Sequence record: PZ445511.1
Length of the DNA: 64,000 nucleotides
Strand: one strand, 5' to 3'
Source of the DNA: a phage
Positions 29,930 through 60,375 of the stretch are shown here, piece by piece (position 1 is the first letter of the stretch; each line of letters starts with the position of its first letter). The notes under the pieces were generated by a model that worked only from the letters and a program-made list of their open reading frames with translations, ran no database searches and was not told where the DNA came from. A program made the translations under genes and the position numbers.

Positions 29930-29938
29930 CCAAATATT

Positions 29939-30238: not shown

Positions 30239-30245
30239 AAATTAT

Positions 30246-30318: not shown

Positions 30319-30327
30319 CCAAACAAT

Positions 30328-30400: not shown

Positions 30401-30409
30401 CCAATTTAT

Positions 30410-30481: not shown

Positions 30482-30500
30482 CCAAATATAAGGAAACGTT

Positions 30501-30722: not shown

Positions 30723-30750
30723 TAATCTAAAGCTAAAGGTTGATAAGCAA

Positions 30751-30879: not shown

Positions 30880-30889
30880 TGGGTTTATT

Positions 30890-30961
30890 GCTCCTAAAGC
30901 ATTGCTGGCGATGCAGTTGCCTTGTAAGCATCTGAACCGGGTTCGATTCCAGGTGGGAGCA
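30890..30961 (+). tRNA. tRNA-Thr(UGU)
   Basis: acceptor gctccta/tgggagc, anticodon loop cttgtaa, T-loop ttcgatt, CCA; single mismatches in stems. Confidence 0.55.
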
Positions 30962-30980
30962 CCAAATTTAAAAAATTCAT

Positions 30981-31009
30981 TTGCCTTCTCTCTTATTTCT
31001 TGTTATAAT
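30981..31009 (+). promoter_or_regulatory. early promoter (TTGCCT-17-TATAAT)
   Basis: promoter family member. Confidence 0.65.
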
Positions 31010-31039
31010 ATTTATATAAATTAATTAGAGGGAAACCAA

Positions 31040-31333
31040 ATGAAACGTTATCTTTCTGTCGTGTTCCAAACTGGTGGTCAACGCTACACTTATGAATTTC
31101 CTGAGTCCTGGAAAATTAAAGAAGGTGATCAAGTTGTTGTATTAACACCTCGTGAAGGCTTCAAAGTAGTAACGGTTAAACAAGTATTTCCAAAAGATCA
31201 CGAACCATCTAAGTCTATTCAGTACAAGATGATTCACGGTCTGGTACGAAAAGTACCTAGAACAGAAGTCGAAGTAGATAAAACTGGGGGAGTTAAGTAT
31301 CAATATACATCCTACTTAGACGAGATGATGTAA
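31040..31333 (+). CDS. hypothetical protein
   Basis: 97 aa ORF. Confidence 0.55.
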   Translation: MKRYLSVVFQTGGQRYTYEFPESWKIKEGDQVVVLTPREGFKVVTVKQVFPKDHEPSKSIQYKMIHGLVRKVPRTEVEVDKTGGVKYQYTSYLDEMM

Positions 31334-31533
31334 TGAGAATTACTTTCACAGAAAAGATTATGTGTAATGGTGTTATGATCATTACAGCGTGGGACGGTAA
31401 ATTGTGGTGTAACGTATCTGGTCTAAAGCCAGAAGATCAAACACCTGAAAACATCCGCAAAGTAAAGCGAAAAATGGCGGAACGTGCCCAACTTCCAGGT
31501 GCTCCAAGAAATGGAGGCTATTTTTCAACCTAA
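31333..31533 (+). CDS. hypothetical protein
   Basis: 66 aa ORF, start overlaps upstream stop. Confidence 0.5.
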   Translation: MRITFTEKIMCNGVMIITAWDGKLWCNVSGLKPEDQTPENIRKVKRKMAERAQLPGAPRNGGYFST

Positions 31534-31534
31534 T

Positions 31535-31607
31535 GCTCCGATAGTTCAACAGGTTAGAACAGGCGACCGATAATCGTCAAATCTTGGTTCGATCCCAAGT
31601 CGGAGTA
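31535..31607 (+). tRNA. tRNA-Ile(GAU)
   Basis: D-stem gttc/gaac, anticodon stem ggcga/tcgtc, loop ccgataa, T-arm cttgg-ttcgatc-ccaag, CCA. Confidence 0.6.
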
Positions 31608-31616
31608 CCAAATTAT

Positions 31617-31689
31617 AGTTAGTTGGCAGAACGGTTATGCACCTCCTTCATACGGAGCGACTACAGTGGTTCAACTCCACTACTAACTA
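31617..31689 (+). tRNA. tRNA-Met/Ile(CAU)
   Basis: acceptor agttagt/actaact perfect, anticodon loop ttcatac, T-arm agtgg-ttcaact-ccact, CCA. Confidence 0.55.
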
Positions 31690-31875
31690 CCAAAGATAAG
31701 ATCAGGCCTTTGTGCCAGATCTCTGTGTTTATTAAACTGAATGGGACTATCAATCCACAAGCCGGACTACGAGCGATTATCGGGTATTCACTTAATAAAC
31801 AGCCTGCCTCCCAGTTTTTATCTTGCTTCTGGGTTAACAAAAAGCTGAGCCAAATTCTAACATCAGGGAGATCTA

Positions 31876-47493: not shown

Positions 47494-48098
47494 TGTTTAC
47501 ACAACAACCTATTCAAGTAGTACCGGATCATGAACTGAACACATGGGATTATAGCTTTAAAGATTTAACTGCTACTGTACAATTCAAATCTATGAAGCTA
47601 ACATTTGCACACAATGACCTTAGAGCATGTAAAGATCTTGAGGGTAAGCTCGAAGATGCTCGCAAGATTTTTGGTAAGGCTCGCATCCCGGCGGATAATC
47701 TGATTAATGCACTGATCGATGCAGGATACAAACTCGTGAAGACTGAGGTGAACCGCCCGAGTACTACAACTATTCCTCGTAATGACCCTTGGCATATTAC
47801 TGCACTGACTAATTCTGATAAAAGATTAATGTCGGATATGCACAATGTTCCTTGTGGTGGCGTGGTAAGCAATACGCAATCATATAAGTTTGGGGAGGAT
47901 TGCAGTCCTTCTGTACAATTGAAACATACTCAAGAAGCTCTTGAATCTGATATGCGAAGCGTAGCACCAGCGGATACTGGAGTTTCTAGGAACTCATACA
48001 CCATTCATCTGAGTACACCATCTAGTAGAAATGAGAGCTTTGCTGATGCAGTTATGGAAGCTCTTGTTGATCTGACTAATAGTAAGGGTTTTAATTAA
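47493..48098 (+). CDS. hypothetical protein
   Basis: 201 aa. Confidence 0.55.
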   Translation: MFTQQPIQVVPDHELNTWDYSFKDLTATVQFKSMKLTFAHNDLRACKDLEGKLEDARKIFGKARIPADNLINALIDAGYKLVKTEVNRPSTTTIPRNDPWHITALTNSDKRLMSDMHNVPCGGVVSNTQSYKFGEDCSPSVQLKHTQEALESDMRSVAPADTGVSRNSYTIHLSTPSSRNESFADAVMEALVDLTNSKGFN

Positions 48099-48524: not shown

Positions 48525-49406
48525 ATGTATAACTTTAAAGATAAACTAAGACAAAATGCTGGTAAAGGAAAAGCTAAAGAGAACAATAATATTCCTAGTG
48601 CTAAAATATTATCTTTTCCTGAACTAACACAGGAAGAAAAAGATAAACTAGCATTTATGTTCGATGCACTTATAGGATTAAGTGGACGCCTATATTCCAC
48701 TCTTAGTATTAATGAGAAACGTCTAGTAGAGATGTTCTGCAAACGTTATCAAGTTACTTCAAAAGGTAACTCTTATAAAGAAGGTGAAAAAGCATTCACA
48801 GTCTTAAAAATCAGTGCGTATGCACATCGTTTCTTAGTTTATGGATTACAGATGGAATACTTCACCCTCCCACCATTTAAATCATTCCATATCTTTGAAG
48901 ATGAACGAATGAATATTGATGATCTTTATGGAGATACGTACAAATATTCAGGAAGCCCATTCCATGATGCATTAAGAAGCTACCCTACTAGTTACCTACC
49001 AGTTAGAGCATCACAAGGCAAAGCTAGCATCTTTGCTGTATACTCAGGATCTAAAGCATCTGATCTAGAAACTTATATATTTAAAGAGCGTAAATCTGCA
49101 ATTCCAGATGAAGCATTATATAATAATCCACTTCTTCCAGAAGAACCGGAGAAAATTGATGTAACTCCCCCAATCCCATCCGAATCTCAATATTTAGTCT
49201 ATGAAAAACAAGTTAAGTTGTCTCTAGACATTGGGTTGGTTACACCGCTTGCTGCAGCATTCATAAATAAGTATCTAGAAATTCCTGACGAGTTCCATGC
49301 ACGTTATAACACGAATATTCAGATCACAGATGAACTAGTTGCATTAGCAAAAGATACACCTACTGACACTGAGGCGTATCAAAAAGCATACCAAGAGTTA
49401 CTGTAA
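48525..49406 (+). CDS. hypothetical protein
   Basis: 293 aa; last gene before the repeat region. Confidence 0.6.
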   Translation: MYNFKDKLRQNAGKGKAKENNNIPSAKILSFPELTQEEKDKLAFMFDALIGLSGRLYSTLSINEKRLVEMFCKRYQVTSKGNSYKEGEKAFTVLKISAYAHRFLVYGLQMEYFTLPPFKSFHIFEDERMNIDDLYGDTYKYSGSPFHDALRSYPTSYLPVRASQGKASIFAVYSGSKASDLETYIFKERKSAIPDEALYNNPLLPEEPEKIDVTPPIPSESQYLVYEKQVKLSLDIGLVTPLAAAFINKYLEIPDEFHARYNTNIQITDELVALAKDTPTDTEAYQKAYQELL

Positions 49407-49789
49407 GATCCTGCAAGTCTCGGTGCACAATACCTGTACCGAGACTCAAATACAAACTCTCGTTGACAGATAACTAAATGTATGTTATCATAACTCTATG
49501 AGTTAATAAAATTAACCATTTAGAGTTGCCACACAGAAGGTGTGGTGGTTCAGGAATCTTAAATTACTGACTTGTAGCGTAGGTTACGGAGCGACAGGAC
49601 AAGTCAACAGGTAATTTAATAAAGATTACTAGAAACATCACGAGACCTTCTGGCGGGGGCAAAGCTCTATATGAGAACCCTGGGGGGATCTTATACTTAT
49701 ATAAAAACTAATACTGTTGAATAGATAAATTAACGTTCAAGATGATACACTCGGTTGCCGCTCATCTGCTAGGATGGCACAACACTTTC

Positions 49790-50110
49790 TTCTAGACTCC
49801 TAAGTTTCTAGGAAAACTCTCGTCAACTCAGGCGGTTTTCATTGTTCCTAGAAACTCTAGCAATAGGCGGTTAATACAGGGCGGTTATAGGGAGGGCGGT
49901 TATTTCTAGGAGTCATTTTTTGAAAACACATTTCTGGAGATTGCTATCGGATTTGCACATTATGTTTCTAGAAATTTATGGTCGGATTTGCACAATTGCC
50001 TAAGTTTTTAGGAACATATAATCTCCCGAAAATAGCAGCATTATTTCGGGCCGAAGGCCCATGATTGCCTGAGTTTTTAGAGCCACAGGAATTTTCACTT
50101 GTCAAGCTAT
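49790..50110 (+). repeat. short direct repeats (GGCGGTT x4; CT[AG]AGTTT[CT]TAG[AG] x5)
   Basis: seen directly in gene-free region upstream of the iteron array. Confidence 0.6.
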
Positions 50111-50546
50111 TTTGCCCCATTTTGCTAATAAAATTTCGCTTTATCTCCCCCAATCTCAATTCTAGCCAAAACATCCCGCATTATCCCCAAAAACGCAGCA
50201 AACCGGTGCTAAAGCACCATCACCGCTGCTCCTTCCGTAGTTACTCCCAAAATCTCATCGGATTCGCACTTCTCCCCAAACTCACACAATCACACACCCT
50301 CCAATCGAAGTCACAAAAATCTTGTCGGATTCGCACACCTTAACACTTGTCGGTTTTGCACATATTCTAGTAAATCCAGCTGGATTGCATCGCAGTTGCG
50401 GATTGCTGGAGTTTTTAGGAAAATTCATTGTCGGATTCGCACACTATAAAAATATTTGCCATCGGATTTGCACACTACCAAAAATTGTCGGATTCGCACA
50501 TGCACGCTGGCACGTAATCCGTGGGGGCAAATGTCGGATTTGCACA
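49947..50546 (+). repeat. iteron-like array: 9 direct copies of 13-bp TCGG(A/T)TT(T/C)GCACA
   Basis: copies start at 49947, 49982, 50258, 50325, 50350, 50431, 50462, 50488, 50534; irregular spacing; no ORF. Confidence 0.85.
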
Positions 50547-50569
50547 AAAGCGCAGGGCAATTTGCCCTG

Positions 50570-50720
50570 CCTGCCGAAATGCGAATGATAATGAGAATGA
50601 TTCTCTTTTGGGAAGTTGAATGATAATGATTCGCATTTGAGAAGTTGAATGCGAATGAGAACAGTTATCATTTGACTACCGGAATACGAATGAGTCGCAT
50701 AATGAGAATGATTTGCATTT
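50570..50720. repeat. AT-rich GAATGA(G/T)AATGA repeat block with partial palindromes
   Basis: gcgaatgataatgagaatgattc, gaatgataatgattcgcattt, cgaatgagtcgcataatgagaatgatttgcattt. Confidence 0.7.
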
Positions 50721-50752
50721 AGAAAGCGAAGTGAGAAACACTGTTATTTAAG

Positions 50753-50761
50753 TTATCCACA
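50753..50761 (+). promoter_or_regulatory. DnaA box (TTATCCACA, perfect)
   Basis: exact 9-mer; two TTATCAACA variants at 50815-50834. Confidence 0.6.
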
Positions 50762-50844
50762 GGTTTATTAACAGCACGATCTGACTTGACAAAATCCTAG
50801 TGATTTTGAGGCGTTATCAACAGACTTATCAACAGGTTATTCTA

Positions 50845-50860
50845 CTGTATATTTATACAG
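50845..50860. repeat. 16-bp palindrome CTGTATATTTATACAG (copy 1)
   Basis: identical copy at 54516-54531. Confidence 0.8.
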
Positions 50861-50893
50861 TATTACTGCGTAGTGAATAACTCTAATATAGCC

Positions 50894-50922
50894 CTAAAAC
50901 GCTCTGTAACTCATTCTAAGCG
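50894..50922 (+). repeat. 29-bp direct repeat CTAAAACGCTCTGTAAC..TTCTAAGCG (copy 1)
   Basis: 27/29 identical to 54943-54971. Confidence 0.8.
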
Positions 50923-51232
50923 ATTTAATTTTGGAGGAGGTATTTTAATAAGGGGAAATTTGAGGAAGGCCAGAAAAAGCGGGGCGCAACTATCGGCCCC
51001 GTTATTATTAGTCTGGTAGTCGATGTGTGATCTTTTCGCTTTCGCCGTAGGAGTCTACCAAATGTTGATAGTAACCATCGTTATCATAAATCACTTTATC
51101 ATAACGCCATCGCTCCTAGAATGAGAATGATTATCAATATCATTGTAAAGCCATTACCAAATCGTAAACGCTGGGAATGTTTCCCAGCGGTATTATTAGA
51201 TTTATGGCTTTGTGTTTTTCGCCACCAGCTAT

Positions 51233-51445
51233 TCACGGTTTTAAATTCTCTATAGTTAATTTTGCGCGAATAGTGATTCCATATAATTCGCCTCCCTTGT
51301 TTCTTACATCAGGTAGCCAGTCCCACAATTCAGGGTATCCGCTTAAAATTCCTAGCGATGCAAGATTAGCAATAAAACCGGCTATAGTAACCGCTTCCAG
51401 TGAAATAGTTACACGATTATTAATAACTAAAGTAAACTTTTTCAT
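51233..51445 (-). CDS. hypothetical protein (cassette gene 8)
   Basis: 70 aa; start overlaps upstream stop (ATGA). Confidence 0.4.
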   Translation of the reverse strand: MKKFTLVINNRVTISLEAVTIAGFIANLASLGILSGYPELWDWLPDVRNKGGELYGITIRAKLTIENLKP

Positions 51446-51786
51446 TGCGACACCTTTCGAAACGCTGTTTCGATACTTTCAGCGGTTGATTGAATATACG
51501 CGCCTTTCATAATCAGGCGCTCTGTACACACTTTGCGGAAAATGTCAATAAATTCATTTTCATTTTCCGCTATTAACGCTTCCCCCATAACCTGAACATC
51601 ACAAGACCCAAAAGTTAAAAATTGAAATGCTAGTTCACGGGCGACAACGGCAGAAATTTTATAATGTGCTTTGCCCTCATAGATATTAACCACGCCTTTA
51701 TAAACTGGTGAAAGCTGATTTAAATAGTTTGCTAATAATGCCGGACGGCAATTAGTTACAAATCGGTTGCCCTCGTAAATTACCAT
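51442..51786 (-). CDS. hypothetical protein (cassette gene 7)
   Basis: 114 aa. Confidence 0.5.
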   Translation of the reverse strand: MVIYEGNRFVTNCRPALLANYLNQLSPVYKGVVNIYEGKAHYKISAVVARELAFQFLTFGSCDVQVMGEALIAENENEFIDIFRKVCTERLIMKGAYIQSTAESIETAFRKVSQ

Positions 51787-51913
51787 CTGCCAACCTCCCT
51801 AGCAAATAGCCAAAACAAATCGAATAAACGCCTAACAGTGCAGGATCACTTTTAAAGTAGGTAGCAATAAAGCCACCAGCAGCACCGAGCAAAATAGAAA
51901 ATAAAGTTTTCAT
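51752..51913 (-). CDS. small membrane protein, 53 aa (cassette gene 6)
   Basis: hand-translated MKTLFSILLGAAGGFIATYF...; below ORF-track cutoff. Confidence 0.35.
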   Translation of the reverse strand: MKTLFSILLGAAGGFIATYFKSDPALLGVYSICFGYLLGRLADGNLRGQPICN

Positions 51914-52122
51914 AATACCCCACGAAACGCAGCGTAAAAGGTGGCAAAGTGTTTAACCGTTTCGGCTACCAAATTGCCGCGCTTGTCAAATTTCTTATCT
52001 GTAACACGGAAAGCGTTTTTGTTGCGTGCTACATATTCGATTTTACAATCTGGACGCTCGAACGTGTTAACATCCACCAGCTTAAAACCTTTGGAACGGG
52101 CAAGGGAAACATTCTTTAACAT
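51910..52122 (-). CDS. hypothetical basic protein (cassette gene 5)
   Basis: 70 aa. Confidence 0.45.
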   Translation of the reverse strand: MLKNVSLARSKGFKLVDVNTFERPDCKIEYVARNKNAFRVTDKKFDKRGNLVAETVKHFATFYAAFRGVL

Positions 52123-52124
52123 TT

Positions 52125-52274
52125 TTATTCCCCTTTACCAGTCATACAGCCTAACAAGTAAGAAAACCCCGCGATACCTGCTCCGATAATAACCACGTGA
52201 ACGCCGAAAGCTATTACAAACAGCGATAAAATAGCGCCCAAGATACTAGCCAGAATAGATCGAAAAATAACCAT
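52125..52274 (-). CDS. small membrane protein, 49 aa (cassette gene 4)
   Basis: hand-translated MVIFRSILASILGAILSLFVIAFGVHVVIIGAGIAGF...; TAGGAGG RBS. Confidence 0.4.
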   Translation of the reverse strand: MVIFRSILASILGAILSLFVIAFGVHVVIIGAGIAGFSYLLGCMTGKGE

Positions 52275-52381
52275 TTTAACGCCTCCTAGAAATTAGGGAA
52301 AATTTTCAGTCCACCGTTTCGGTGTAAAGGCATTATAACAAAAAAGGCCGCCGATTAGGGCGACCTTTACAAAACTTTACA

Positions 52382-52876
52382 TTAGACTATTTCTAATGCT
52401 TCCACACCGAAACAGCGTTTTAGTTCTTTCTGTAAAACGGCATATTCATCCCAACGGGAATTATCAGGAATATAAACAAGCTGTTTTAATCGATTTGCAT
52501 ATAATAACGCCTTGTTACCAATTATTTCCGCGCCACCGTGTTTAATAATTAATTTCATAACGGTATTAATAGGATCGCCGCCATTTACATAAATACCGGA
52601 TTTACTCAATTGATAATGATAAATACTCGCATAAACATTATCATTTTCAATCCATTCCCCTGTTTCTTCATCTTCTTCCCCATCACTACCGAAACGAGAA
52701 GCATTATCATATGCGTGTTCGTTTGCGAAAGCGTCCAGATCACAGCCAGCGGGAACAAAATGTTCCTCCGTCCAGCCTTCCCCACAATAGCCAGTGTGAC
52801 AATCAACTAAAACGATCATATCGTGTTTAGCTTCATTCACACTTTCTAGAGAAAAGCCATATTTTTCTTCTGACAT
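52382..52876 (-). CDS. hypothetical acidic protein (cassette gene 3)
   Basis: 164 aa, Asp/Glu-rich central segment. Confidence 0.55.
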   Translation of the reverse strand: MSEEKYGFSLESVNEAKHDMIVLVDCHTGYCGEGWTEEHFVPAGCDLDAFANEHAYDNASRFGSDGEEDEETGEWIENDNVYASIYHYQLSKSGIYVNGGDPINTVMKLIIKHGGAEIIGNKALLYANRLKQLVYIPDNSRWDEYAVLQKELKRCFGVEALEIV

Positions 52877-52889
52877 AACTAGACTCCTA

Positions 52890-53198
52890 TTAATTAGCAG
52901 GGAAATAAAGAGAATTTGCTACACTGTAAAATACTTTATTTAAGAAAATTACGTCATCACGGACTATTTCATCCATTCCATAATCCAGCAAAGTTTCGTC
53001 TACAAAAATACATAGCCAGCCATAACCACGATCAAAGAAAGCATGATAATTATTAGCGCTTTCTACATGTTCCCATAAAAAGGGACGGCCTTGTTTTTCC
53101 CATATAGGAATATTGCTTTGATCGTCCGAATAATTAACATGGGGGCTATTCGGCATTTTTTCGGCTAATTGCGTCAACATGATTTGATTCAGTTGCAT
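52890..53198 (-). CDS. hypothetical protein (cassette gene 2)
   Basis: 102 aa. Confidence 0.5.
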   Translation of the reverse strand: MQLNQIMLTQLAEKMPNSPHVNYSDDQSNIPIWEKQGRPFLWEHVESANNYHAFFDRGYGWLCIFVDETLLDYGMDEIVRDDVIFLNKVFYSVANSLYFPAN

Positions 53199-53264
53199 AA
53201 TAAGTAGTCTCCTAACAATTAACAGGGAAATAGTAAAGCGGGAAATAATCCCCGCTAGTAATTA

Positions 53265-54266
53265 TTACTCTGTTTCGGCGCTTTGGGTAAAGGTAGAAAT
53301 GTCAATGCCTTTTACCATTTCATCGATCATTTCAGCAATATTGAAACTCTGTACCATTTCCAGCATTGCCGCTTCCATTGCCGCGCCTGCTACCGCTTTC
53401 GCTTTCTGATTAGTCGGGGCGTACTGGTCAACCGCTACGCTTAACAGGTTAGCGATCACTACGCGACCAATCGGAGTATCAATATAACCTTTAATCATAA
53501 ACGGCGCTTTTTTCGCCGCTACTTTTGTGATTTGAGTCAGTGCAATTTTACCCGCTTCCAGTTTTGCAGCATTTACAACAGCGGATTTATTAGCAGCAAC
53601 GATAGAAGATACTTTAGTCATGATATTTCCTTTATTTTCAGTAGTTTGCGCATTTGCGCTTGAAGTTTGAGAGTTTACAGCCTGTTTTGTTACGTTGTCA
53701 ACTGGTTTTAGTGTAAATCCAGCATTTGCAACGTTTGATTCATTCCCATAACATAAATAATCGTCAGGGATCAACATGTTACCGCTAGCGCGTTCAAAAC
53801 ATAATACGCCAGTTGTTTCGATTGCGTCACTATCCGCACCTTTATAGCTTGACGATAATTCCCGCCAGATACTATTTAATAACGATCCGACACTATCCAG
53901 TCTGATATTATTTATTTTTGTTGCTGTTACCTGCTCTTTTTCTTGCACGTTATATAATCGCGCAATGTAACCACTATGAGACTCACTATAACCAACAATG
54001 ATAAAATCAATATCAGTTCCCCGACTATTACGGAAAATGTGATAATCACGGTTGAAAATTACTAGCGCCCTTGTCTGGTCTAGTAATAGCGTGAAATCAT
54101 CGACTGAATAATGAGTATCATTATTATCTAAAATTTCATCGTGAATCTTTTCAACCATTGCCGCCGTATGTTGTACGCTTGCCGCACTACTACCATCTAG
54201 CAGGTTGCGCAAACTACCCTTAATAATAGTGGCGTTTGCTGGTACTGCAATTCTTACAGTAGACAT
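53265..54266 (-). CDS. hypothetical protein (cassette gene 1)
   Basis: 333 aa; Ala/Lys-rich C-terminal third; no recognisable motif. Confidence 0.6.
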   Translation of the reverse strand: MSTVRIAVPANATIIKGSLRNLLDGSSAASVQHTAAMVEKIHDEILDNNDTHYSVDDFTLLLDQTRALVIFNRDYHIFRNSRGTDIDFIIVGYSESHSGYIARLYNVQEKEQVTATKINNIRLDSVGSLLNSIWRELSSSYKGADSDAIETTGVLCFERASGNMLIPDDYLCYGNESNVANAGFTLKPVDNVTKQAVNSQTSSANAQTTENKGNIMTKVSSIVAANKSAVVNAAKLEAGKIALTQITKVAAKKAPFMIKGYIDTPIGRVVIANLLSVAVDQYAPTNQKAKAVAGAAMEAAMLEMVQSFNIAEMIDEMVKGIDISTFTQSAETE

Positions 54267-54454
54267 TTCTTTGTCTCCCTCGTTAATCAGTGAGTGAATG
54301 ATATAGATAATTGTTCGCTAGGGGCAAGAAAAAAGAAAAGGTTTTTTATTCCTTGCCTACTGCCCGTTTTTATGATAATCGCGCGTTTTCTATTTCTAGC
54401 TCTCTGTAAGCGTACACAAGGCTTTATTATAATAAGGGTCACACTGAGAAAACC

Positions 54455-54474
54455 GTCTAGAATCGATTCTAGAC
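54455..54474. promoter_or_regulatory. 20-bp perfect palindrome GTCTAGAATCGATTCTAGAC (operator-like)
   Basis: exact inverted repeat in divergent control region. Confidence 0.7.
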
Positions 54475-54515
54475 GCCTTAAAATCGACATCCTTATAATA
54501 TGCTACCAGTTTACC

Positions 54516-54531
54516 CTGTATATTTATACAG
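54516..54531. repeat. 16-bp palindrome CTGTATATTTATACAG (copy 2)
   Basis: identical to 50845-50860. Confidence 0.8.
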
Positions 54532-54553
54532 TAGGATAACCTGTATATAAGTC

Positions 54554-54611
54554 TGTGGATAAGTCCTCATATAGTCGCCTATTACGTCAAGTTATTTTGT
54601 GCTGTGGATAA
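54554..54611 (-). promoter_or_regulatory. two perfect DnaA boxes (TGTGGATAA at 54554-54562 and 54603-54611)
   Basis: exact reverse-complement 9-mers 41 bp apart; third 8/9 box at 54888-54896. Confidence 0.6.
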
Positions 54612-54942
54612 CTTTGGGGATAAGTTAAATGATAGTGGTTCTCACTTAGCCCGATAGTTTCTCATAGTTATTATTTCCCATTAATTTATGTGTATATTAT
54701 ATATTATGAAATAGTTAGTTGGCTAATAGGATTTTCCGTGATTAATAGTCTGCTAATGATAACGCATGTTTCAATCCACCAGCGTGATTATCATCCTAGC
54801 AACTATTAGAGTGCTAATGACCTGATACACGTCCAGACTTATTTGTCAATGAAAAATAACAGCAGAAAATACTTTTTTGAAAAATCAAGTGGATAACTCA
54901 TTAAATTTCATTTTTGCTTTTTGTATAAGTTATTAACAGGGT

Positions 54943-54971
54943 CTAAAACGCTCTGTAACGCGTTCTAAGCG
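54943..54971 (+). repeat. 29-bp direct repeat (copy 2)
   Basis: 27/29 identical to 50894-50922. Confidence 0.8.
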
Positions 54972-55374
54972 CCTTTGATGAAAAGCTATCCCATCATAAG
55001 GGGAGGTGTCCGAAAACCTCACCACGAGGATTTTAGATTTTGTCAAGTAGGCAAGAGCAGAAATAAATGAAAAAATTACTTGCTAAACTGCTTATTTGTG
55101 TGTTATTCGTGCGCCCGTTTCATTAAATTTAGTGCGCCGCTGGACGTGGTGCGGTGGCGTTTGTCTTTACGTTTCTTTACAAAAATAAGGTTGCGCCCTT
55201 CTCGGTATTCTCCTATTATTTATCACGTAGGGCGGCAATGACGAACTACACGGCGGGGATAACAGCGATTGACAGTCTGTTTGACCTTTCAAAACCCTGC
55301 CATGCTCTTTAAAAATTAGGGAACATCTTAAAGCCTATCGGCGGTAAACTTAGATATTATAAGGAATCGACGAT

Positions 55375-55584
55375 ATGAAACAAACGCTTTTGATCACTGG
55401 CAAGCCTATCAAGTCACTTGATAGCAGAACAAAAAATTTGTTGACAGTAGCGCAACGATCTGTAAAATACAGATTCAAGCAATACAAGAAAGGCAAGCAA
55501 CAAGGGCTGGAAATGGTGTGGCGTAATATAATGATTGATTTATATAACTCATATCAAATAGAAAAAAGTTTAAAAAACGCTTGA
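55375..55584 (+). CDS. hypothetical small basic protein (may be spurious)
   Basis: 69 aa; contains internal TTGACA-16-TAAAAT promoter-like motif. Confidence 0.3.
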   Translation: MKQTLLITGKPIKSLDSRTKNLLTVAQRSVKYRFKQYKKGKQQGLEMVWRNIMIDLYNSYQIEKSLKNA

Positions 55585-55609
55585 CACGCTAGCCGATAGG
55601 TTTTAAGAT
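55581..55609 (+). promoter_or_regulatory. putative promoter (TTGACA-17-TAAGAT)
   Basis: consensus -35 with weaker -10. Confidence 0.35.
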
Positions 55610-55815
55610 GTTCCCTAGTTTTTAAAGAGTGATAACTTGATAAAATTTGACGGTCGGCACTTACCATAATGTGCCCCGCCCCCTAACTGGGATATAGCGG
55701 CCCGCGTGGAGTTCTTTAAATTTATTATATTGGCTAGCGGATTATAATCTAATAGCGTTTCAAAGTATCGAGGCGCTATTGTGGAATAATCCCCCAATAA
55801 ACCGGAGTATTAAAA

Positions 55816-56067
55816 ATGCAAAACGTTATCACCGCACCGAAAGTAGGTCAATCCGTTTTTATTCCTTTCGTTACTAAAACGGATGAATTAACTGGAAAAG
55901 CTGAACGTATTAAAGGTGCGGCGCTTGATCCCTTTGATAAAATTGAAGCGGTATACGCGGAAACGGAACGCAGTAACAACGGCAAGCCAATTTATAACGT
56001 TCGCGTTAAATCTGGCGACGTTGTAAAAATCATTCAGAAAGATGATAAATGGCAAGCTATTAGCTAA
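55816..56067 (+). CDS. hypothetical protein
   Basis: 83 aa. Confidence 0.5.
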   Translation: MQNVITAPKVGQSVFIPFVTKTDELTGKAERIKGAALDPFDKIEAVYAETERSNNGKPIYNVRVKSGDVVKIIQKDDKWQAIS

Positions 56068-56166
56068 TTAGTGTTACTTTTATATTCCCCTGAAATATGG
56101 GGAATATATGGATTAACATTAGTTAATCATAATCCCTTAATTAATAATTGAATGGAGTATTAAATT

Positions 56167-56583
56167 ATGTCTAACGTTAAAACCGAAAAAACCGCAAAAT
56201 TCTCTTGGAACGAAGAAAACACCGAAAAGGCTGTTTCTATGTATTCTGAAATGGTCGCTAAAAGCGGAATTGAATTTGCTAACAGTGACGGCTTGAAAGA
56301 AATCGCCGCCGCCGTTGGTGCTGCTAGTCCGGTGTCTGTACGTTCTAAATTGACCAGTGCAAAAGCCTACCAGAAAAGCGACAAGCCGCGTAAAGTTGGC
56401 GGCGGTAGCTCTGTCCGTAAAGCTCACTATGTGCGCGTCATTGCTAAACATGCCATTGATAGCGGCATTGTAAAAGACGCTGACGATCTGGCAAGTCTGG
56501 AAAGTGCTAAACTGGAAACACTGGACGCCGTAGCGCAATTATTAGGCGTAGCGGAGGAAGTAAAACAGGCCGCAGGTGAATAA
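56167..56583 (+). CDS. A2: pre-early A2-like protein
   Basis: 138 aa immediately upstream of A1-like gene; assignment by size and position only. Confidence 0.4.
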   Translation: MSNVKTEKTAKFSWNEENTEKAVSMYSEMVAKSGIEFANSDGLKEIAAAVGAASPVSVRSKLTSAKAYQKSDKPRKVGGGSSVRKAHYVRVIAKHAIDSGIVKDADDLASLESAKLETLDAVAQLLGVAEEVKQAAGE

Positions 56584-56633
56584 ATTTTAATTAGCGGGGA
56601 ATATTCCCCGCTAACCCTTAAAGGAGAATAATC

Positions 56634-56861
56634 TTGATCTTTTATCCTAGCGAAGCGTTTATTTTAGGTTTATTTATTATTGCCGCTATATTTATATTTA
56701 ATTACGGCAAATATATAATTTCTATTATCGGCATTAATTCAGCTTATGCCGCTGATATGTTTAAACGTCAAGCTAATAAACAAAAATATCTGGCGATTAT
56801 ATTTTTAACGCTGGCTATTAGTTGCGGTTTTAGTTCTAGTCTTATGCCAATTCTAGAATAA
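56634..56861 (+). CDS. small membrane protein
   Basis: 75 aa. Confidence 0.4.
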   Translation: MIFYPSEAFILGLFIIAAIFIFNYGKYIISIIGINSAYAADMFKRQANKQKYLAIIFLTLAISCGFSSSLMPILE

Positions 56862-56969
56862 TATTGCAAATTATAACGCCTTTTAAATTGTCCTCACTTC
56901 AGGCAAGGCGTTATATTTGGCAATATTGCCAGTATTAATATTTATCCCTTTAATGGAGTTAATTAACTT

Positions 56970-58634
56970 ATGAATATTTCCGCAGAAAAACAAGCTCAAA
57001 TTTTGAAAATGGCCGCAGATTTTAACTTCTACGGTAAGCGTTTACGCGCTACTAAATTGGAAGTTTGCGACGATATTTCAAAAGCTGTTTATGATACGCC
57101 GAAACATTCAACCGCAATTTGTGATTGGCTGGAAGCAAACAAGCCAGCGAAACCGAAAGCGGCAAAAGCTGAAAAGGCGATTAAAAATGATGATCGCCCC
57201 GAAGCGGCGGGAATTGTTTCTAGTACCGTTGAACAATGGGAAGTTAAATCCGGTCGCCGTTTTATTCTAACGTCGATTCAAAATAATACTTTCCCTCATA
57301 AAAACTTTTTAGCAAGTCTAGAAAAATTCGCTGAATATTGCGGCGCTGAATTGCTGATTAGTAAATTCATTTATAATAAAAATGGATTCCAGAACGGGGA
57401 AGGGGCAAACGGTATTAAATACGATCCCGCATTTGATAAATATGTTTGTGATAAAAACGTATTTTTAAATAACCGCCGCTTTGCTTTCATGGCTGAAATT
57501 AACGTTTTGCCAACGGCAGATTATCCGCTTTCAGGATTCGCAGAAACTGCCACCGCTTTAAATATTGAAGGTCTGGCAATTGGTCACGCAAAAATTACCG
57601 CCGAAAGCGTGCCAGCTTTAAAAGGTGAAGTAGTGCGCCGTATGTATTCAACCGGAACGGCTACACTTAAAAACTATATTCAGCAGAAAGCAGGTCAAAA
57701 AGCTGAGGCTTTACATAATTACGGCGCTTTGCTGGTAGAATTTGACGACGACGGCGAATTTTTCGTGCGCCAGCTTGAAACAATGGACGAAAGCGGAATG
57801 TTCTATGATCTGAATATTTGCGCCACTCCTAGCGGTTGCAAAGAAATTACCGGACACATTTTAGGCTTACAATATGGCGATATTCACGCCGAAAAATTAG
57901 ATGATGAATGCGCCGTCGCTTCATGGGCTAGTGAAAATTCATTGCTTGATATTCTTAAACCGAAATATCAGTTTATTCATGATGTGCATGATTTTACATC
58001 GCGTAACCATCACAACCGCGCTAGTGGTGTATTCCTTGCTAAACAGTACGCCGCAGGACGTGATAAAGTTATTGATGATCTCATTGATACCGGTCGCGTG
58101 TTGGAATCTATGGAACGTGAATTTAGTCAAACAATCATTGTGGAATCCAACCATGATTTAGCTCTTTCACGCTGGCTTGATGATCGTAACGCAAACATTA
58201 AGGACGATCCCGCAAACGCCGAGCTATACCACAGCCTAAACGCTGCGATTTACGCCGCAATTGCAAAACAAGATGATACCTTTAACGTATTGGATTACGC
58301 GCTTAGAAACGTTGCAGGTTGCGAATTTAACGCTATTTTCCTGACTACTGACCAGTCATTTAAAATCGCTGGCATTGAATGTGGCGTACATGGTCACAAC
58401 GGCATTAATGGCAGTCGGGGCAATCCTAAACAGTTTAAAAAGTTGGGACGCCTTAACACTGGTCACACTCACACGGCTAGCATATACGGCGGCGTTTATA
58501 CCGCTGGCGTTGCTGGTAGTCTCGATATGGGTTACAACGTGGGCGCGTCAAGCTGGACGCAAACGCATTTAATTACCTATGCAAACGGGCAACGTACTTT
58601 GATTGATTTCAAAAACGGTAAATTCTTTGCATAA
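56970..58634 (+). CDS. A1: pre-early A1-like metallophosphoesterase
   Basis: 554 aa; phosphoesterase motifs GDIHAE, HDVHD, HTHT; size fits my recollection of T5 A1. Confidence 0.6.
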   Translation: MNISAEKQAQILKMAADFNFYGKRLRATKLEVCDDISKAVYDTPKHSTAICDWLEANKPAKPKAAKAEKAIKNDDRPEAAGIVSSTVEQWEVKSGRRFILTSIQNNTFPHKNFLASLEKFAEYCGAELLISKFIYNKNGFQNGEGANGIKYDPAFDKYVCDKNVFLNNRRFAFMAEINVLPTADYPLSGFAETATALNIEGLAIGHAKITAESVPALKGEVVRRMYSTGTATLKNYIQQKAGQKAEALHNYGALLVEFDDDGEFFVRQLETMDESGMFYDLNICATPSGCKEITGHILGLQYGDIHAEKLDDECAVASWASENSLLDILKPKYQFIHDVHDFTSRNHHNRASGVFLAKQYAAGRDKVIDDLIDTGRVLESMEREFSQTIIVESNHDLALSRWLDDRNANIKDDPANAELYHSLNAAIYAAIAKQDDTFNVLDYALRNVAGCEFNAIFLTTDQSFKIAGIECGVHGHNGINGSRGNPKQFKKLGRLNTGHTHTASIYGGVYTAGVAGSLDMGYNVGASSWTQTHLITYANGQRTLIDFKNGKFFA

Positions 58635-58686
58635 TTAAATTTAATCGGCGGTTGAAATATACCGCCATTAATAAAAGGTTTATTAA

Positions 58687-58965
58687 ATGGCTAGTAAAAT
58701 TAATATATCTATCCCTGATAGCAATTGTTTAGAAGATATTGCATGGTCTGAAATGTCTTTTGATAGTTGCGTTTATTTAGTTACCCGTGGAATGTACGCG
58801 GGAATGTACGCCGTATGGGATAGTAATATTGGCGAAAATATGATCTTTTTCGGAAAAGATTCTATTCAGGTAATGACAGGCGATTACCTTAATCAAGAAA
58901 GGAAAGACGGCGACGAAACATATTTTCGTAAAACTGATTTATCTTTAAATGTATTTTTTCAATAA
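58687..58965 (+). CDS. hypothetical protein
   Basis: 92 aa. Confidence 0.5.
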   Translation: MASKINISIPDSNCLEDIAWSEMSFDSCVYLVTRGMYAGMYAVWDSNIGENMIFFGKDSIQVMTGDYLNQERKDGDETYFRKTDLSLNVFFQ

Positions 58966-58997
58966 ATCCCGTAATTAAATAATCTGGAGTCATAAAC

Positions 58998-59390
58998 ATG
59001 AAAAACCAAAACATTCCTTTTGATCGTGCTACTTCTTCCATCGTTCTAGTTTATTCTAATGGCGAACGTTATCACGTCGAAGCGGGGCAAGTTAATTTCG
59101 ATTTGCTGAATTATAACGACGCTTTGCAGGTTACTACCTTTGCTTATGATACCGGCAAAGTGGCAAGCCATACGAAAGCAAAAGGCGTTTACGCTGATAC
59201 TTTGACAGTGCAAACAATCATTATTGATGCGCTTAAATCCGGTCTAGCGTTTGCGGTTGTTAAGCCGTGTCCGGTCTGCAATCCCGAAGCTAGCGCAATG
59301 GTTTATACTTGCGCGGGTATCCGTTCTAGCGTACATGGTGAAGATCTTTCCTTTATCGGTGACGCGCTAGCGTATGGCCTCACTAACTAA
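58998..59390 (+). CDS. hypothetical protein
   Basis: 130 aa. Confidence 0.5.
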   Translation: MKNQNIPFDRATSSIVLVYSNGERYHVEAGQVNFDLLNYNDALQVTTFAYDTGKVASHTKAKGVYADTLTVQTIIIDALKSGLAFAVVKPCPVCNPEASAMVYTCAGIRSSVHGEDLSFIGDALAYGLTN

Positions 59391-59477
59391 TAGTTAATTG
59401 AACATTGCCAGCTAATCTAATATAATTAGCTGGCAAGATTGAATTAACCTAAATCCCTTAAATGGAGAATGTAACAA

Positions 59478-60212
59478 ATGAATCAAGTCAACATGAATAT
59501 TACCCGCACTTTCCCGCATATTTCCCGCGTTATGATTTGGGATTTAGACGGGACAATCATTAATTCATTCCATCGTGTAGCGCCTTGCTTTGATGATAAC
59601 GGGAATTTAGATTTAAATAAGTATTCCCGCGAAGCCTGCAAACATGAATTAATTATGCAGGATTCCTTATTACCATTGGTTGAATATATGCGCCAATGTA
59701 TGAATGATCCCAATACCTTAAACCTTATTTGTACCGCTCGCTTAATGGGTAAATCTGATTATTATTTCTTGCGTAAACAAAGTCTAAGAGGGCGCGGAAA
59801 TAGTAATATTCGCGTATTTTCCCGCGATACATTACATAAATACTTTGATGCAAATAAGGTTAGTGAAATATATCACAGCAAAGACGCAGTATATAAAAGC
59901 TATTACTTTGAACTGTTTAAACAGCTATATCCTAACGCTGATTTTACGATGATTGATGATCATAAAGGCGTATTATCAGCAGCAGCAAACGCAGGATTTA
60001 AAACGCTGGACGCTCAAGCTGTTAACGATATCCTATCAATTGGGGTAACATTGATTGGTGAAACCTTTATTGATGAATCGCTTGATGATGATAACGATTA
60101 TCAATTCCTAGCCGAACGTTTAAAAATGTGTTGGGAAGGTATGACCGAGGAAGAACGCGCAGAATATAGTACCACTCCGCAACAGTTCATCGACAAATTA
60201 AAAGTTGCCTAA
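59478..60212 (+). CDS. dmp: HAD-superfamily phosphatase, 5'-deoxyribonucleotidase-like
   Basis: 244 aa; HAD motif IWDLDGTI; size fits T5 Dmp. Confidence 0.6.
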   Translation: MNQVNMNITRTFPHISRVMIWDLDGTIINSFHRVAPCFDDNGNLDLNKYSREACKHELIMQDSLLPLVEYMRQCMNDPNTLNLICTARLMGKSDYYFLRKQSLRGRGNSNIRVFSRDTLHKYFDANKVSEIYHSKDAVYKSYYFELFKQLYPNADFTMIDDHKGVLSAAANAGFKTLDAQAVNDILSIGVTLIGETFIDESLDDDNDYQFLAERLKMCWEGMTEEERAEYSTTPQQFIDKLKVA

Positions 60213-60375
60213 CAATTAAAAATAAAATAGTCACACTGTGTAATGATAACATGGTGTGACTATTAGCTTGCTAAGTACCGGGGCGGTAATGAGACTCATT
60301 CTCATCTGTGGAACCTCTGGGCACACCTTCATGTGTAATCTTATGAAATTTCGAGAATTGGTAATTAGCGCTAAC

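What the first reader, a model, noticed from the sequence alone, without database searches (positions are those of the whole stretch)
49947..50546. Array of nine 13-bp iterons in a 1.8-kb gene-free region
TCGG(A/T)TT(T/C)GCACA recurs nine times with irregular spacing of 25 to 276 bp, preceded by other short repeat families. There are no ORFs, promoters or tRNAs here. The layout resembles what I recall of the T5 injection-stop region (repeats, palindromes, DnaA boxes); it could bind a host or phage protein or act as an origin.
Basis: partly seen in the sequence, partly recalled or inferred. Interest (0 to 1): 0.55.

Follow-up and report, generated by a model that had tools for sequence, protein, structure and literature searches.

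The report
Known T5 injection-stop region repeats
This is the already-described set of nine short direct repeats ("DRD") in the non-coding injection-stop / terminal-repeat-end region of a T5-like Salmonella phage: the repeats are real and strongly conserved, but they are not new, and what they do is still unproven.

Summary
TCGGWTTYGCACA occurs 8 times exactly and once with one mismatch, all on the + strand, at 49947-50546 (0.01 expected by chance). The window is a T5-like Salmonella phage (Epseptimavirus, 99% to phage S147), in reverse orientation to the T5 map. The gene-free stretch is homologous (87%) to T5 9157-10936. In T5 that stretch holds the annotated injection stop signal, the end of the left terminal repeat (TR) and the 7.9% nick. 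T5 carries the same 13-mer nine times there; these are the "nine DRD repeats" of Repeat Region 3 (Wang 2005; Davison 2020). The finding is therefore already known, though no function has been assigned.

New detail found here:
- The motif is R-TCGGATTYGCAC-W, always in one orientation.
- It is kept in phages of Escherichia, Salmonella, Klebsiella, Erwinia, Pectobacterium and Vibrio.
- It always forms two clusters that bracket the TR boundary (window 50079|50080).
- The TR-side cluster ends 3 nt before the conserved nick motif.

My best guess (0.38) is that these are polar protein-binding sites marking the TR end for concatemer cutting and the start of packaging. The main rival (0.30) is a role in the injection stop or restart. 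A replication-origin role is not supported.

The parts
49947..49959 (+). DRD copy 1 (TCGGATTTGCACA), on the unique-DNA side of the terminal-repeat boundary
49982..49994 (+). DRD copy 2 (TCGGATTTGCACA), unique-DNA side
50258..50270 (+). DRD copy 3, degenerate (TCGGATTCGCACT), inside the terminal repeat. It is absent or not recognisable in T5 and BF23.
50325..50337 (+). DRD copy 4 (TCGGATTCGCACA), TR side
50350..50362 (+). DRD copy 5 (TCGGTTTTGCACA). Its last 9 nt, TTTTGCACA, match the relaxed DnaA-box consensus TTWTNCACA exactly.
50431..50443 (+). DRD copy 6 (TCGGATTCGCACA)
50462..50474 (+). DRD copy 7 (TCGGATTTGCACA)
50488..50500 (+). DRD copy 8 (TCGGATTCGCACA)
50534..50546 (+). DRD copy 9 (TCGGATTTGCACA), the last copy. 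It is followed by AAA^GCGCAGGG.
47832..47844 (+). Remote tenth copy with one mismatch (TCGGATATGCACA), same orientation, inside the T5.019-homologue gene. An exact copy sits at the equivalent T5 position 12153-12165, and many T5-like contigs have a copy 1.7-2.6 kb upstream of the array.
50048..50060 (.). GC-rich palindrome GGGCCGAAGGCCC, 20 bp outside the TR boundary. It lies in the block 50040-50059, invariant across the 8-phage alignment.
50064..50080 (+). ATTGCCTGAGTTTTTAG (probably Wang/Davison 'DRA'), abutting the TR boundary. Related copies lie at 49995-50011 and 50402-50418 (+) and at 49848-49864 (-).
50079..50080 (.). Right boundary of the terminal repeat, by homology. T5 LTR end 10219 maps to window 50080, BF23 TR end 9743 to 50080, and vB_SenS-3 9455 to 50076. 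The TR then runs rightwards to the left genome terminus at about 60322. The most conserved block of the whole region is 50040-50140.
50100..50320 (+). C-rich stretch with repeated CCCCAAA-like words between the boundary and the TR-side DRD cluster. GC skew reaches -0.43.
50549..50550 (+). Position homologous to the T5 7.9% single-strand interruption (T5 9748/9749, minus strand). The sequence is ACAAAA^GCGCAGGG.
50552..50570 (-). Palindrome GCAGGGCAAATTGCCCTGC followed by a T-run on the minus strand. It looks like a terminator for pre-early transcription that reads towards the array.
50578..50729 (+). AATGMGAATGA / AATGAGAATGATT repeat family, matching the DRE/DRC-type repeats of T5 Repeat Region 3
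50729..50859 (.). Equivalent of T5 IRD'-spacer-IRC', Davison's iss candidate. It contains two pairs of DnaA boxes, each pair separated by 3 bp: TTATCCACA 50753-50761 with TTATTAACA 50765-50773, and TTATCAACA 50814-50822 with 50826-50834. Its inverted partner lies at 54516-54569.
   Evidence: Davison 2020
49463..49491 (+). Promoter-like site TTGACA-17-TATCAT (11/12, TG-extended -10), pointing towards the array. It is conserved in T5 and in Klebsiella T5-like phages.

Best explanation
What it is (near certain): this is the 'DRD' direct-repeat array of the T5-type non-coding control region. Wang 2005 and Davison call that region Repeat Region 3, and it is annotated in T5 as the injection stop signal. 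Here it sits in an Epseptimavirus genome shown in reverse orientation to the T5 map.

How it most likely works (inference): each 13-mer, R-TCGGATTYGCAC-W, is an independent, orientation-specific binding site for one sequence-specific DNA-binding protein. That protein is probably phage-encoded and conserved across most Demerecviridae.

The sites form two clusters that bracket the right-hand boundary of the terminal repeat. In replicated concatemers this boundary is where the first cut must be made. The reasoning is that the left end is injected first, so it is presumably packaged last, which means packaging should start at the right end. On this reading the array marks and orients that cut and packaging-start site, in the way that repeated elements flank the cut in P1 pac, SPP1 pac or lambda cos.

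The conserved nick motif next to the last copy is a separate signal that happens to abut the array.
For: Identity:
- The region is 87% identical to T5 9100-10940.
- T5 has nine copies of the same motif at 9752-10489 on the corresponding strand.
- The outermost T5 copy ends at 10489, which equals Davison's Repeat Region 3 end (10409 in AY587007) plus the 80-bp offset between the two T5 records. He lists exactly 'nine DRD repeats' there.

Selection on the motif:
- In an 8-phage alignment the DRD columns are 98% conserved and 89% invariant, against 87% and 60% for the rest of 49900-50600.
- In the Klebsiella, Erwinia, Pectobacterium (My1) and Vibrio (Thalassa) phages, the DRDs (and in several of them a short stretch at the TR boundary) stay recognisable while most of the surrounding DNA has diverged.
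- Across 70 sites from 9 phages, found by searching only for TTYGCAC, the unsearched left half is T 70/70, C 68, G 68, G 65, A 60.

Polarity: in 48 IMG/VR loci there is no copy on the opposite strand.

Bracketing of the TR boundary:
- The T5 and BF23 TR ends both map to window 50080.
- In at least 8 complete genomes that carry both TRs, the contig end lies 245-247 nt before the first exact TR-side copy.
- Copies either side of the boundary: window 2|7, T5 3|6, My1 3|4, Thalassa 2|5 with one copy 10 bp from the boundary. Klebsiella (4|4) and Erwinia (3|5) show the same split around a 266-315-nt gap; their boundary is inferred by homology, not annotated.
- The boundary core 50040-50140 is the best-conserved block. 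It is the only piece that aligns by BLAST with Erwinia phage KEY.
- The left terminus is not conserved between T5 and this phage.

Other points:
- Spacing within clusters is not conserved between lineages (15 to about 110 bp), which fits independent sites.
- Paired DRDs are absent from 185,579 bacterial and archaeal species genomes, apart from two short MAG contigs. This argues against a host regulon built on tandem sites.
- A 2026 review states that how T5/T7-type terminally repeated genomes start and end packaging is poorly understood (PMC13595956), so no known T5 pac site competes with this reading.
Against: - There are no binding, cleavage or genetic data for DRDs, either here or in the literature I could read.
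- The packaging direction is inferred from the last-in-first-out rule and the left-end-first injection of T5 (my own knowledge). It has not been shown.
- The TR-side copies lie 180-470 bp from the boundary, further than in most characterised pac/cos sites.
- Proteus phage RP7 (Novosibvirus) has A1, A2 and terminase genes but no DRD array. The array is therefore not universal among T5 relatives that must also package DNA.
- The same stretch is the classical candidate region for the injection stop. The estimated shear point (about T5 9618-9700, window about 50600) lies just beside the TR-side cluster.
- Some TR ends in database records are software predictions and disagree: Seafire maps to 50551 and chee130_1 to 50289.
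Confidence: 0.38

Rival explanations
1. The DRDs are part of the injection stop or restart signal itself. One version is that a protein bound to the polar sites (packaged with the DNA, or waiting at the envelope) halts DNA transfer after about 8% of the genome. Another is that the sites are where the pre-early A2 or A1-A2 proteins act to restart transfer. Davison predicted a specific A1/A2 target to the right of the stop and inside the TR.
For: - The stretch is annotated as iss in T5.
- It is the literature's candidate region.
- The shear-point estimate maps to about window 50600, immediately beside the TR-side cluster. During the pause the DRDs would therefore lie in or near the tail and envelope.
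- Polarity without fixed spacing suits a signal met by DNA moving in one direction.
- A2 is a DNA-binding protein essential for second-step transfer.
Against: - An iss-only role does not explain why 2-4 copies always lie outside the TR, nor why the TR boundary is kept between the two clusters in three subfamilies.
- Davison places iss at the DnaA-box inverted repeat and the DRE repeats, and gives the DRDs no role.
- Proteus phage RP7 keeps A1 and A2 (A2 44% identical, with the same conserved SVR-KL segment) but has no DRDs.
- If the stop is to the left of the DRDs, cytoplasmic A2 could not reach them during the pause.
Confidence: 0.3
2. The DRDs are low-affinity DnaA boxes. They would extend the DnaA-binding platform of the neighbouring DnaA-box pairs, as in Davison's model in which membrane-bound DnaA holds the incoming DNA.
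For: - The last 9 nt of the motif, ATTTGCACA, match TTWTNCACA at 8 of 9 positions.
- Copy 5 (TTTTGCACA) matches 9 of 9.
- True DnaA boxes lie 200-300 bp away.
- The same motif persists in phages of hosts from Escherichia to Vibrio. That would be easy to explain if the binder is a highly conserved host protein.
- In Thalassa the DnaA-like half is the better conserved half.
Against: - The non-DnaA half, TCGG(A), is as conserved as the DnaA-like half across 70 sites. A 9-bp DnaA site does not account for this.
- Position 1 of the box is A, not T, in most copies, and the TTC variants have two mismatches.
- Spacings of 15-110 bp are not those of cooperative DnaA arrays.
- TTWTNCACA is not enriched in the window as a whole: 9 found against 7.5 expected.
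- RP7 keeps four TTATCCACA boxes but has no DRDs, so the two elements can be separated.
Confidence: 0.12
3. The repeats act at the level of RNA or transcription. Either they are repeated motifs in a transcript started at the 49463 promoter, or they are protein roadblocks that stop early transcription from running antisense into the pre-early genes.
For: - A near-consensus promoter points into the array and is conserved in T5 and in Klebsiella phages.
- All copies are on the strand that would be transcribed.
- Each copy could form a short hairpin presenting GGA, read directly from the sequence.
Against: - No transcript data are available.
- The GGA is replaced by GAA, GGT or GTA in several otherwise conserved copies.
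- The promoter block is present in only about 140 of about 520 related records, whereas the DRDs are in nearly all.
- No Rfam family matches.
Confidence: 0.05
4. The repeats are replication-origin iterons bound by an initiator.
For: There are multiple direct repeats next to DnaA boxes in a non-coding region.
Against: - Spacing is irregular and not conserved, with no helical phasing.
- There is no AT-rich unwinding element; GC is 0.44-0.46 and higher than the flanks.
- There is no adjacent initiator gene.
- T5 origins are reported near the centre of the genome, and the replication genes are not expressed from first-step DNA (Davison 2020).
Confidence: 0.03

Closest known systems
DRD direct repeats of bacteriophage T5 'Repeat Region 3' / injection stop signal (iss) region (Heusterspreute 1987; Wang 2005; Davison 2015 and 2020, bioRxiv 10.1101/866236)
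   Same: - The same 13-mer, with nine copies on the same strand relative to the flanking genes.
- The same neighbours: the T5.018 homologue on one side and pre-early genes on the other.
- The same adjacent DnaA-box inverted repeat, TR boundary and nick motif.
- 87% DNA identity over the whole region.
   Different: - The host phage is an Epseptimavirus of Salmonella, not T5.
- The split around the TR boundary is 2 outside and 7 inside, against 3 and 6 in T5.
- One window copy (50258) is degenerate.
- T5 has a 46-nt insertion that carries its third outside copy.
Repeated recognition elements flanking the cut site of phage packaging signals: P1 pac hexamers, SPP1 pacL/pacR, lambda cosB R sites, and the SRL/SRR short-repeat arrays beside the T7 terminal repeat (from my own knowledge, not checked here)
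   Same: Short repeats lie on both sides of the position where the mature DNA end is made. The core at the cut is conserved. Orientation is needed to set the direction of packaging.
   Different: - No terminase binding or cleavage has been shown for the DRDs.
- The array spans about 600 bp, with copies up to 470 bp from the boundary.
- T5-type genomes have 10-kb terminal repeats, and how they are generated is not understood.
DnaA boxes / oriC-type DnaA arrays
   Same: The 3' nine bases of the DRD match TTWTNCACA at 7-9 positions. Copies are oriented in one direction. Genuine DnaA boxes are nearby.
   Different: - The conserved TCGG extension is not part of a DnaA box.
- The spacing is not that of oriC arrays.
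- There is no unwinding element.
Plasmid and phage replication iterons (RepA-type, lambda O sites)
   Same: Multiple direct repeats lie in a non-coding region.
   Different: - The repeats are 13 bp rather than 17-22 bp.
- Spacing is irregular.
- There is no initiator gene and no AT-rich region.
- The location is a genome end, not a mapped origin.
Polar DNA signals read by moving machines (Chi, KOPS, Ter sites; from my own knowledge)
   Same: Non-palindromic motifs in strictly one orientation, redundant, with free spacing.
   Different: There is no sequence similarity to any of them, and no reader protein is known.

Membership tests
T5 Repeat Region 3 / iss-region DRD array | Lies in the large non-coding region between the last pre-early genes of the terminal repeat and the first early gene (T5.018) | tested here: met
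   The T5.018 homologue (90% identical) ends at 49406. Minus-strand pre-early genes begin at about 51233. The layout matches the T5 and vB_SenS-3 annotation.
T5 Repeat Region 3 / iss-region DRD array | Repeat unit identical to the T5 unit, about nine copies, single orientation | tested here: met
   T5 has nine copies of TCGGATTYGCACA at 9752-10489 on the corresponding strand. The window has 8 exact copies plus 1 near copy.
T5 Repeat Region 3 / iss-region DRD array | The array overruns the end of the left terminal repeat into unique DNA | tested here: met
   The T5 and BF23 TR ends map to window 50080, with two copies outside and seven inside. [quoted passage not shown]
T5 Repeat Region 3 / iss-region DRD array | Accompanied by the IRD'-spacer-IRC' inverted repeat, with DnaA boxes in pairs 3 bp apart and a partner repeat about 3-4 kb inside the TR | tested here: met
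   Box pairs lie at 50753/50765 and at 50814/50826. The inverted partner is at 54516-54569, 85% complementary over 54 nt.
T5 Repeat Region 3 / iss-region DRD array | Cis-acting arrest of DNA transfer after about 8% of the genome | not testable with these tools
   This needs infection experiments (blender shearing or sequencing of first-step DNA).
Replication-origin iterons | Regularly phased repeats next to an AT-rich unwinding element and an initiator gene | tested here: not met
   Spacings are 25-276 bp and are not conserved between lineages. GC is 0.44-0.46, above the flanks. There is no initiator gene nearby.
Replication-origin iterons | Origin activity mapped at the site | not testable with these tools
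   Davison 2020 cites T5 origins near the centre of the genome.
DnaA-box cluster | 9-mers matching TTWTNCACA | tested here: inconclusive
   One DRD matches 9/9 (50354-50362). TTT-type copies match 8/9 and TTC-type copies 7/9. The conserved TCGG half lies outside any DnaA box.
DnaA-box cluster | Binding by DnaA | not testable with these tools
   This needs EMSA, footprinting or ChIP.
pac/cos-type packaging recognition site | Located at the position where the mature genome end is cut | tested here: met
   The clusters bracket the TR boundary in T5, BF23, at least 8 further complete genomes, My1 and Thalassa.
pac/cos-type packaging recognition site | Bound by small terminase, or required for terminase cleavage and the start of packaging | not testable with these tools
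   No T5 pac site is described in the papers I could read. A review says the mechanism is poorly understood.

The most novel reading that the evidence does not exclude
The DRD array, together with the conserved core at 50040-50140, is the so-far unidentified cis signal that defines the right end of the 10-kb terminal repeat in T5-like phages. It would be a polar, multi-site 'pac'-type signal read by a conserved phage protein. It has been kept almost letter for letter from Escherichia phages to Vibrio phages, and it physically overlaps the region that also sets the two-step injection.
Probability: 0.3. Interest if true: 0.55.

Novelty: already known. Interest (0 to 1): 0.22.

Why it matters
The repeats themselves are textbook-level T5 anatomy, so finding them again in a T5-like Salmonella phage is not news.

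What remains open after about 40 years is what stops and restarts T5 DNA injection, and how the 10-kb terminal repeats get their exact ends. The comparative picture assembled here gives specialists a concrete, mutable target:
- an invariant 13-mer;
- strict polarity;
- two clusters that always bracket the repeat boundary in three subfamilies;
- separability from both the nick signal and the DnaA boxes.

T5 genome engineering now exists (PMC8108384; bioRxiv 10.64898/2026.04.02.716235), so the target can be tested.

Tried and rejected
- **Rfam:** a scan of 49200-51300 at E<=1 gave only a chance-level hit.
- **Pfam:** nothing found for A2, A1 or the T5.018 and T5.019 homologues.
- **DRDs as the determinant of the adjacent nick:** rejected. 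The other three annotated T5 nick sites share a different extended motif (CGTAAT..N26..^GCGCAGGG) and have no DRD.
- **A host regulon using the same tandem sites:** rejected. Paired DRDs occur in only two short MAG contigs among 185,579 species genomes.
- **A CsrA-type GGA sponge RNA:** rejected, because GGA is not kept in otherwise conserved copies.
- **Coding region in homologues:** rejected. The 'hypothetical proteins' annotated over the stretch differ between records, and open frames are not conserved.
- **A2 as the binder, tested by comparing phages with and without DRDs:** uninformative. A2 of the DRD-less phage RP7 is as similar (44%) as A2 of the DRD-bearing Thalassa (41%).
- **A structured RNA downstream of the 49463 promoter:** the single-sequence fold is unusually stable (z = -4.84). 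The 5-sequence consensus fold, however, gave a positive (unfavourable) covariation term, so this is left as a lead.
- **Literature:** Davison 2015 and the primary papers of 1987 and 2005 are not in the held library. The DRD sequence is not printed in any held paper. The identification DRD = this 13-mer therefore rests on copy number and on coordinates matching exactly.
Full report
**1. The observation**

The degenerate pattern TCGGWTTYGCACA has eight exact matches in the 64-kb window, all on the + strand between 49947 and 50546. Shuffled sequence gives 0.01. With one mismatch allowed, a ninth copy appears at 50258-50270 (TCGGATTCGCACT). Start-to-start spacings are 35, 276, 67, 25, 81, 31, 26 and 46 bp.

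The surrounding gene-free stretch runs from 49407 to about 51232. On the left it follows the stop of a 293-aa gene that is 90% identical to T5.018. On the right it ends at the first minus-strand gene. No tRNA lies there.

The one inaccurate statement is 'no promoters'. A sigma-70-type match of 11/12 with a TG-extended -10 lies at 49463-49491 and points towards the array.

**2. What the sequence is**

The 1.65-kb stretch matches 522 phage records. The best matches are Salmonella phages of the genus Epseptimavirus, at 99%.

The window runs in reverse orientation to the T5 map: early genes, then the non-coding region, then the terminal repeat (TR) with A2 (56167-56583), A1 (56970-58634) and dmp (59478-60212). 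The stretch aligns with T5 (NC_005859) 9100-10940 at 87% identity.

The T5 record annotates three features there. Mapped through the alignment, they fall as follows:

| T5 feature | T5 coordinate | Window position |
|---|---|---|
| 'injection stop signal (iss)' | 9140-10149 | about 51130 (extrapolated; 9140 lies outside the aligned part) to 50150 |
| End of the left terminal repeat | 10219 | 50080 |
| 'major DNA single-chain interruption' | 9748/9749 | between 50549 and 50550 on the + strand |

The nick therefore falls three bases after the last repeat copy, in ACAAAA^GCGCAGGG.

T5 itself carries the same 13-mer nine times at 9752-10489 on the corresponding strand, plus one more copy at 12153 inside T5.019.

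**3. Prior description**

Davison's preprint (10.1101/866236) describes T5 'Repeat Region 3', 9194-10409 in AY587007 coordinates. [quoted passage not shown] He says these were characterised previously by Wang et al. and by himself.

The LTR ends of the two T5 records (10139 against 10219) differ by 80 bp; Davison notes that the AY587007 sequence lacks 75 bp. With that 80-bp offset, the end of his region (10409+80 = 10489) is exactly the last base of the outermost copy found, and the copy number is the same.

The paper proposes that the neighbouring DnaA-box inverted repeat plus the DRE repeats are the stop signal. It says explicitly that its model 'assigns no role' to the many other repeats. 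[quoted passage not shown] The element is therefore known; its function is not.

**4. Evidence that the motif is under selection**

- In an alignment of eight Tequintavirus and Epseptimavirus phages, the DRD columns are 98% conserved and 89% invariant. The rest of 49900-50600 is 87% conserved and 60% invariant.
- Beyond these two genera little else stays recognisable besides the motif and, in several phages, a short stretch at the TR boundary:
  - Klebsiella phage vB_Kpn13-P3 has 8 copies.
  - Erwinia phage KEY has 8.
  - Pectobacterium phage My1 has 7.
  - Vibrio phage Thalassa has 7 copies of a TCGGATTTGCACC-type unit, although its A1 protein is only 31% identical.
- I collected 70 sites from nine phages by searching only for TTYGCAC. 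The unsearched left half was T 70/70, C 68/70, G 68/70, G 65/70 and A 60/70. The unit is therefore R-TCGGATTYGCAC-W.
- In 48 IMG/VR loci every copy is on one strand.
- Spacing inside the clusters changes between lineages, from five tandem copies with a 15-bp period in two metagenomic contigs to gaps of about 110 bp.
- Paired copies are essentially absent from one genome each of 185,579 bacterial and archaeal species. The only two hits are 2.6-kb and 3.0-kb MAG contigs.
- Proteus phage RP7 (Novosibvirus) has A1, A2 and DnaA boxes but no DRD array.

**5. Anatomy that bears on function**

The array is always two clusters separated by a long gap, and the TR boundary falls in that gap.

- The T5 end (10219) and the BF23 end (9743, PhageTerm) both map to window 50080. 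The vB_SenS-3 end maps to 50076.
- In at least eight complete IMG/VR genomes that contain both repeats, the contig end lies 245-247 nt before the first exact TR-side copy. That is the same point.
- In My1 the order is three copies, boundary, four or more copies.
- In Thalassa it is two copies, boundary (10 bp after a copy), five copies.
- The block around the boundary (50040-50140) contains a GC palindrome and the word ATTGCCTGAGTTTTTAG that abuts the boundary. It is the most conserved part of the whole region (94-100%) and the only part that still aligns with Erwinia phage KEY.
- The start of the TR (GAATTTTCACTTGTCAAGCTATTTTGCCCC) is recognisably similar in My1.
- By contrast, the first 115 bp at the left terminus of T5 have no counterpart in this phage.

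The last DRD copy is followed in Markadamsvirinae by (A/T)AAGCGCAGG.

**6. The nick**

The four nick sites annotated in T5 share ^GCGCAGGG (GCGCGGG at the 64.8% site) and, about 30 nt upstream, CGTAAT(C)C-like bases. Only the 7.9% site contains a DRD. The DRDs are therefore not the nick determinant. The last copy simply sits between the two halves of that nick site.

One database TR end, Seafire (PhageTerm), maps to window 50551. That is the nick rather than the boundary, which suggests a software artefact. It also gives indirect support for a nick at this position in an Epseptimavirus.

**7. Mechanism**

What is shown:
- a 13-bp, non-palindromic, strictly oriented, redundant motif;
- conservation across phages of six host genera;
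- two clusters bracketing the TR end.

What is inferred: each copy is an independent site for one sequence-specific protein.

Because the boundary is kept between the clusters in three subfamilies, I favour a role in defining and processing the TR end. T5 injects its left end first. By the last-in-first-out rule (my own knowledge) packaging should then begin at the right boundary of a TR in the concatemer. The TR-side copies would lie on the DNA that enters the capsid first, as lambda cosB does. The outside copies would lie on the other flank, as in P1 pac or SPP1 pacL/pacR. How T5-type genomes begin and end packaging is acknowledged to be poorly understood. I put this reading at 0.38.

The main rival, at 0.30, is that the DRDs belong to the injection stop or restart signal. 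The region is the classical iss candidate, and the shear-point estimate maps to about window 50600 beside the TR-side cluster. A2 is an essential DNA-binding protein for second-step transfer. That reading does not explain the outside copies or the position of the boundary.

A DnaA reading, at 0.12, rests on the 7-9/9 match of the 3' half to TTWTNCACA. It does not explain the equally conserved TCGG half.

Transcription- or RNA-level roles get 0.05. The origin reading gets 0.03. It is disfavoured for four reasons:
- spacing is irregular;
- there is no AT-rich element (GC 0.44-0.46, GC skew -0.43 at 50050-50350);
- there is no initiator gene;
- T5 origins are reported in the middle of the genome.

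**8. Verdict**

The element has been described and named before, so novelty is 'already known' and interest is low.

The added value here is the comparative anatomy:
- an exact motif;
- strict polarity;
- bracketing of the TR end in three subfamilies;
- separation from the nick signal and from the DnaA boxes.

This turns an unexplained repeat into a testable candidate for the terminal-repeat end signal or the injection stop.

Noticed in passing
window 49463-49720 (+): A near-consensus sigma-70 promoter (TTGACA-17-TATCAT, TG-extended) is followed by about 220 nt with no ORF. That stretch folds unusually stably as RNA (-67 kcal/mol, z = -4.84). The promoter and downstream block are 90-99% conserved in about 140 T5-like records including T5, and the promoter is also kept in Klebsiella phages. 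It may encode a small non-coding RNA. Covariation in a 5-sequence alignment was inconclusive, and no Rfam family matches.
   Followed up: partly
L001 9709-9788, L016 1298-1377, L017 1708-1787, L018 1535-1614 (T5); window 50505-50560: The four major nick sites annotated in T5 share more than the published NPu^GCGCN. They share ^GCGCAGGG downstream and a CGTAAT(C)C-like element about 30 nt upstream. This suggests a bipartite recognition site of about 45 bp for the nicking enzyme. The window has the same arrangement (CGTAATCC ... ACAAAA^GCGCAGGG).
   Followed up: partly
L005 2120 (Salmonella phage Seafire, MK050846.2 position 9592); L004 1857 (chee130_1, MF431736.1 position 8717): Terminal-repeat ends annotated in these records disagree with T5 and BF23. 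The PhageTerm end for Seafire coincides with the conserved nick (window-equivalent 50551) rather than the repeat boundary (50080). The chee130_1 end maps to 50289. These are probably annotation artefacts caused by the nick or by coverage-based estimates.
   Followed up: partly
window 47832-47844; T5 L001 12153-12165: A tenth DRD copy in the same orientation lies about 2 kb outside the array, inside the T5.019-homologue coding sequence. It is exact in T5 and has one mismatch here. Many T5-like contigs have a copy 1.7-2.6 kb upstream of the array.
   Followed up: partly
window about 60322: The left genome terminus, by homology to the start of the vB_SenS-3 record, falls at about 60322, yet the window continues beyond it. 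The source assembly therefore has the two terminal repeats collapsed into one and the ends joined. In this window the TR is 50080-60322.
   Followed up: partly
L019 (SABI01000336.1, 'Spirochaetia' MAG) and L020 (RZZU01000077.1, 'Clostridia' MAG): These two short MAG contigs are the only 'bacterial' records with paired DRDs. L020 even has the AAAGCGCAGG tail. They look like T5-like phage DNA mis-binned into MAGs.
   Followed up: no
L030 833-950 and L066 3907-4024 (IMG/VR metagenomic contigs, 47 and 86 kb): Here the DRD unit occurs as five head-to-tail copies with a 15-bp period (TCGGTTTTGCACTAG), plus further copies. These contigs have almost no DNA similarity to known phages. They may represent a divergent T5-like lineage with a compacted array.
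   Followed up: partly
window 50100-50320: A C-rich stretch with repeated CCCCAAA-like words lies just inside the terminal-repeat boundary (GC skew -0.43). Similar C-rich words follow the boundary in My1 and Thalassa.
   Followed up: no
window 17822-31692: A block of 28 tRNA genes lies on the + strand, typical of T5-like phages. It includes one called tRNA-SeC (anticodon TCA) by ARAGORN at 17822-17895, possibly a UGA-reading or mis-typed tRNA.
   Followed up: no
window 60301-60322 and 50080-50092: The two ends of the terminal repeat carry short words in inverted relationship: CCACAG within the last 20 nt at the left terminus and GAGCCACAGG at the right boundary. T5 has GTCCACTG and CTGTGGCTC. 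This may be chance and was not tested statistically.
   Followed up: no
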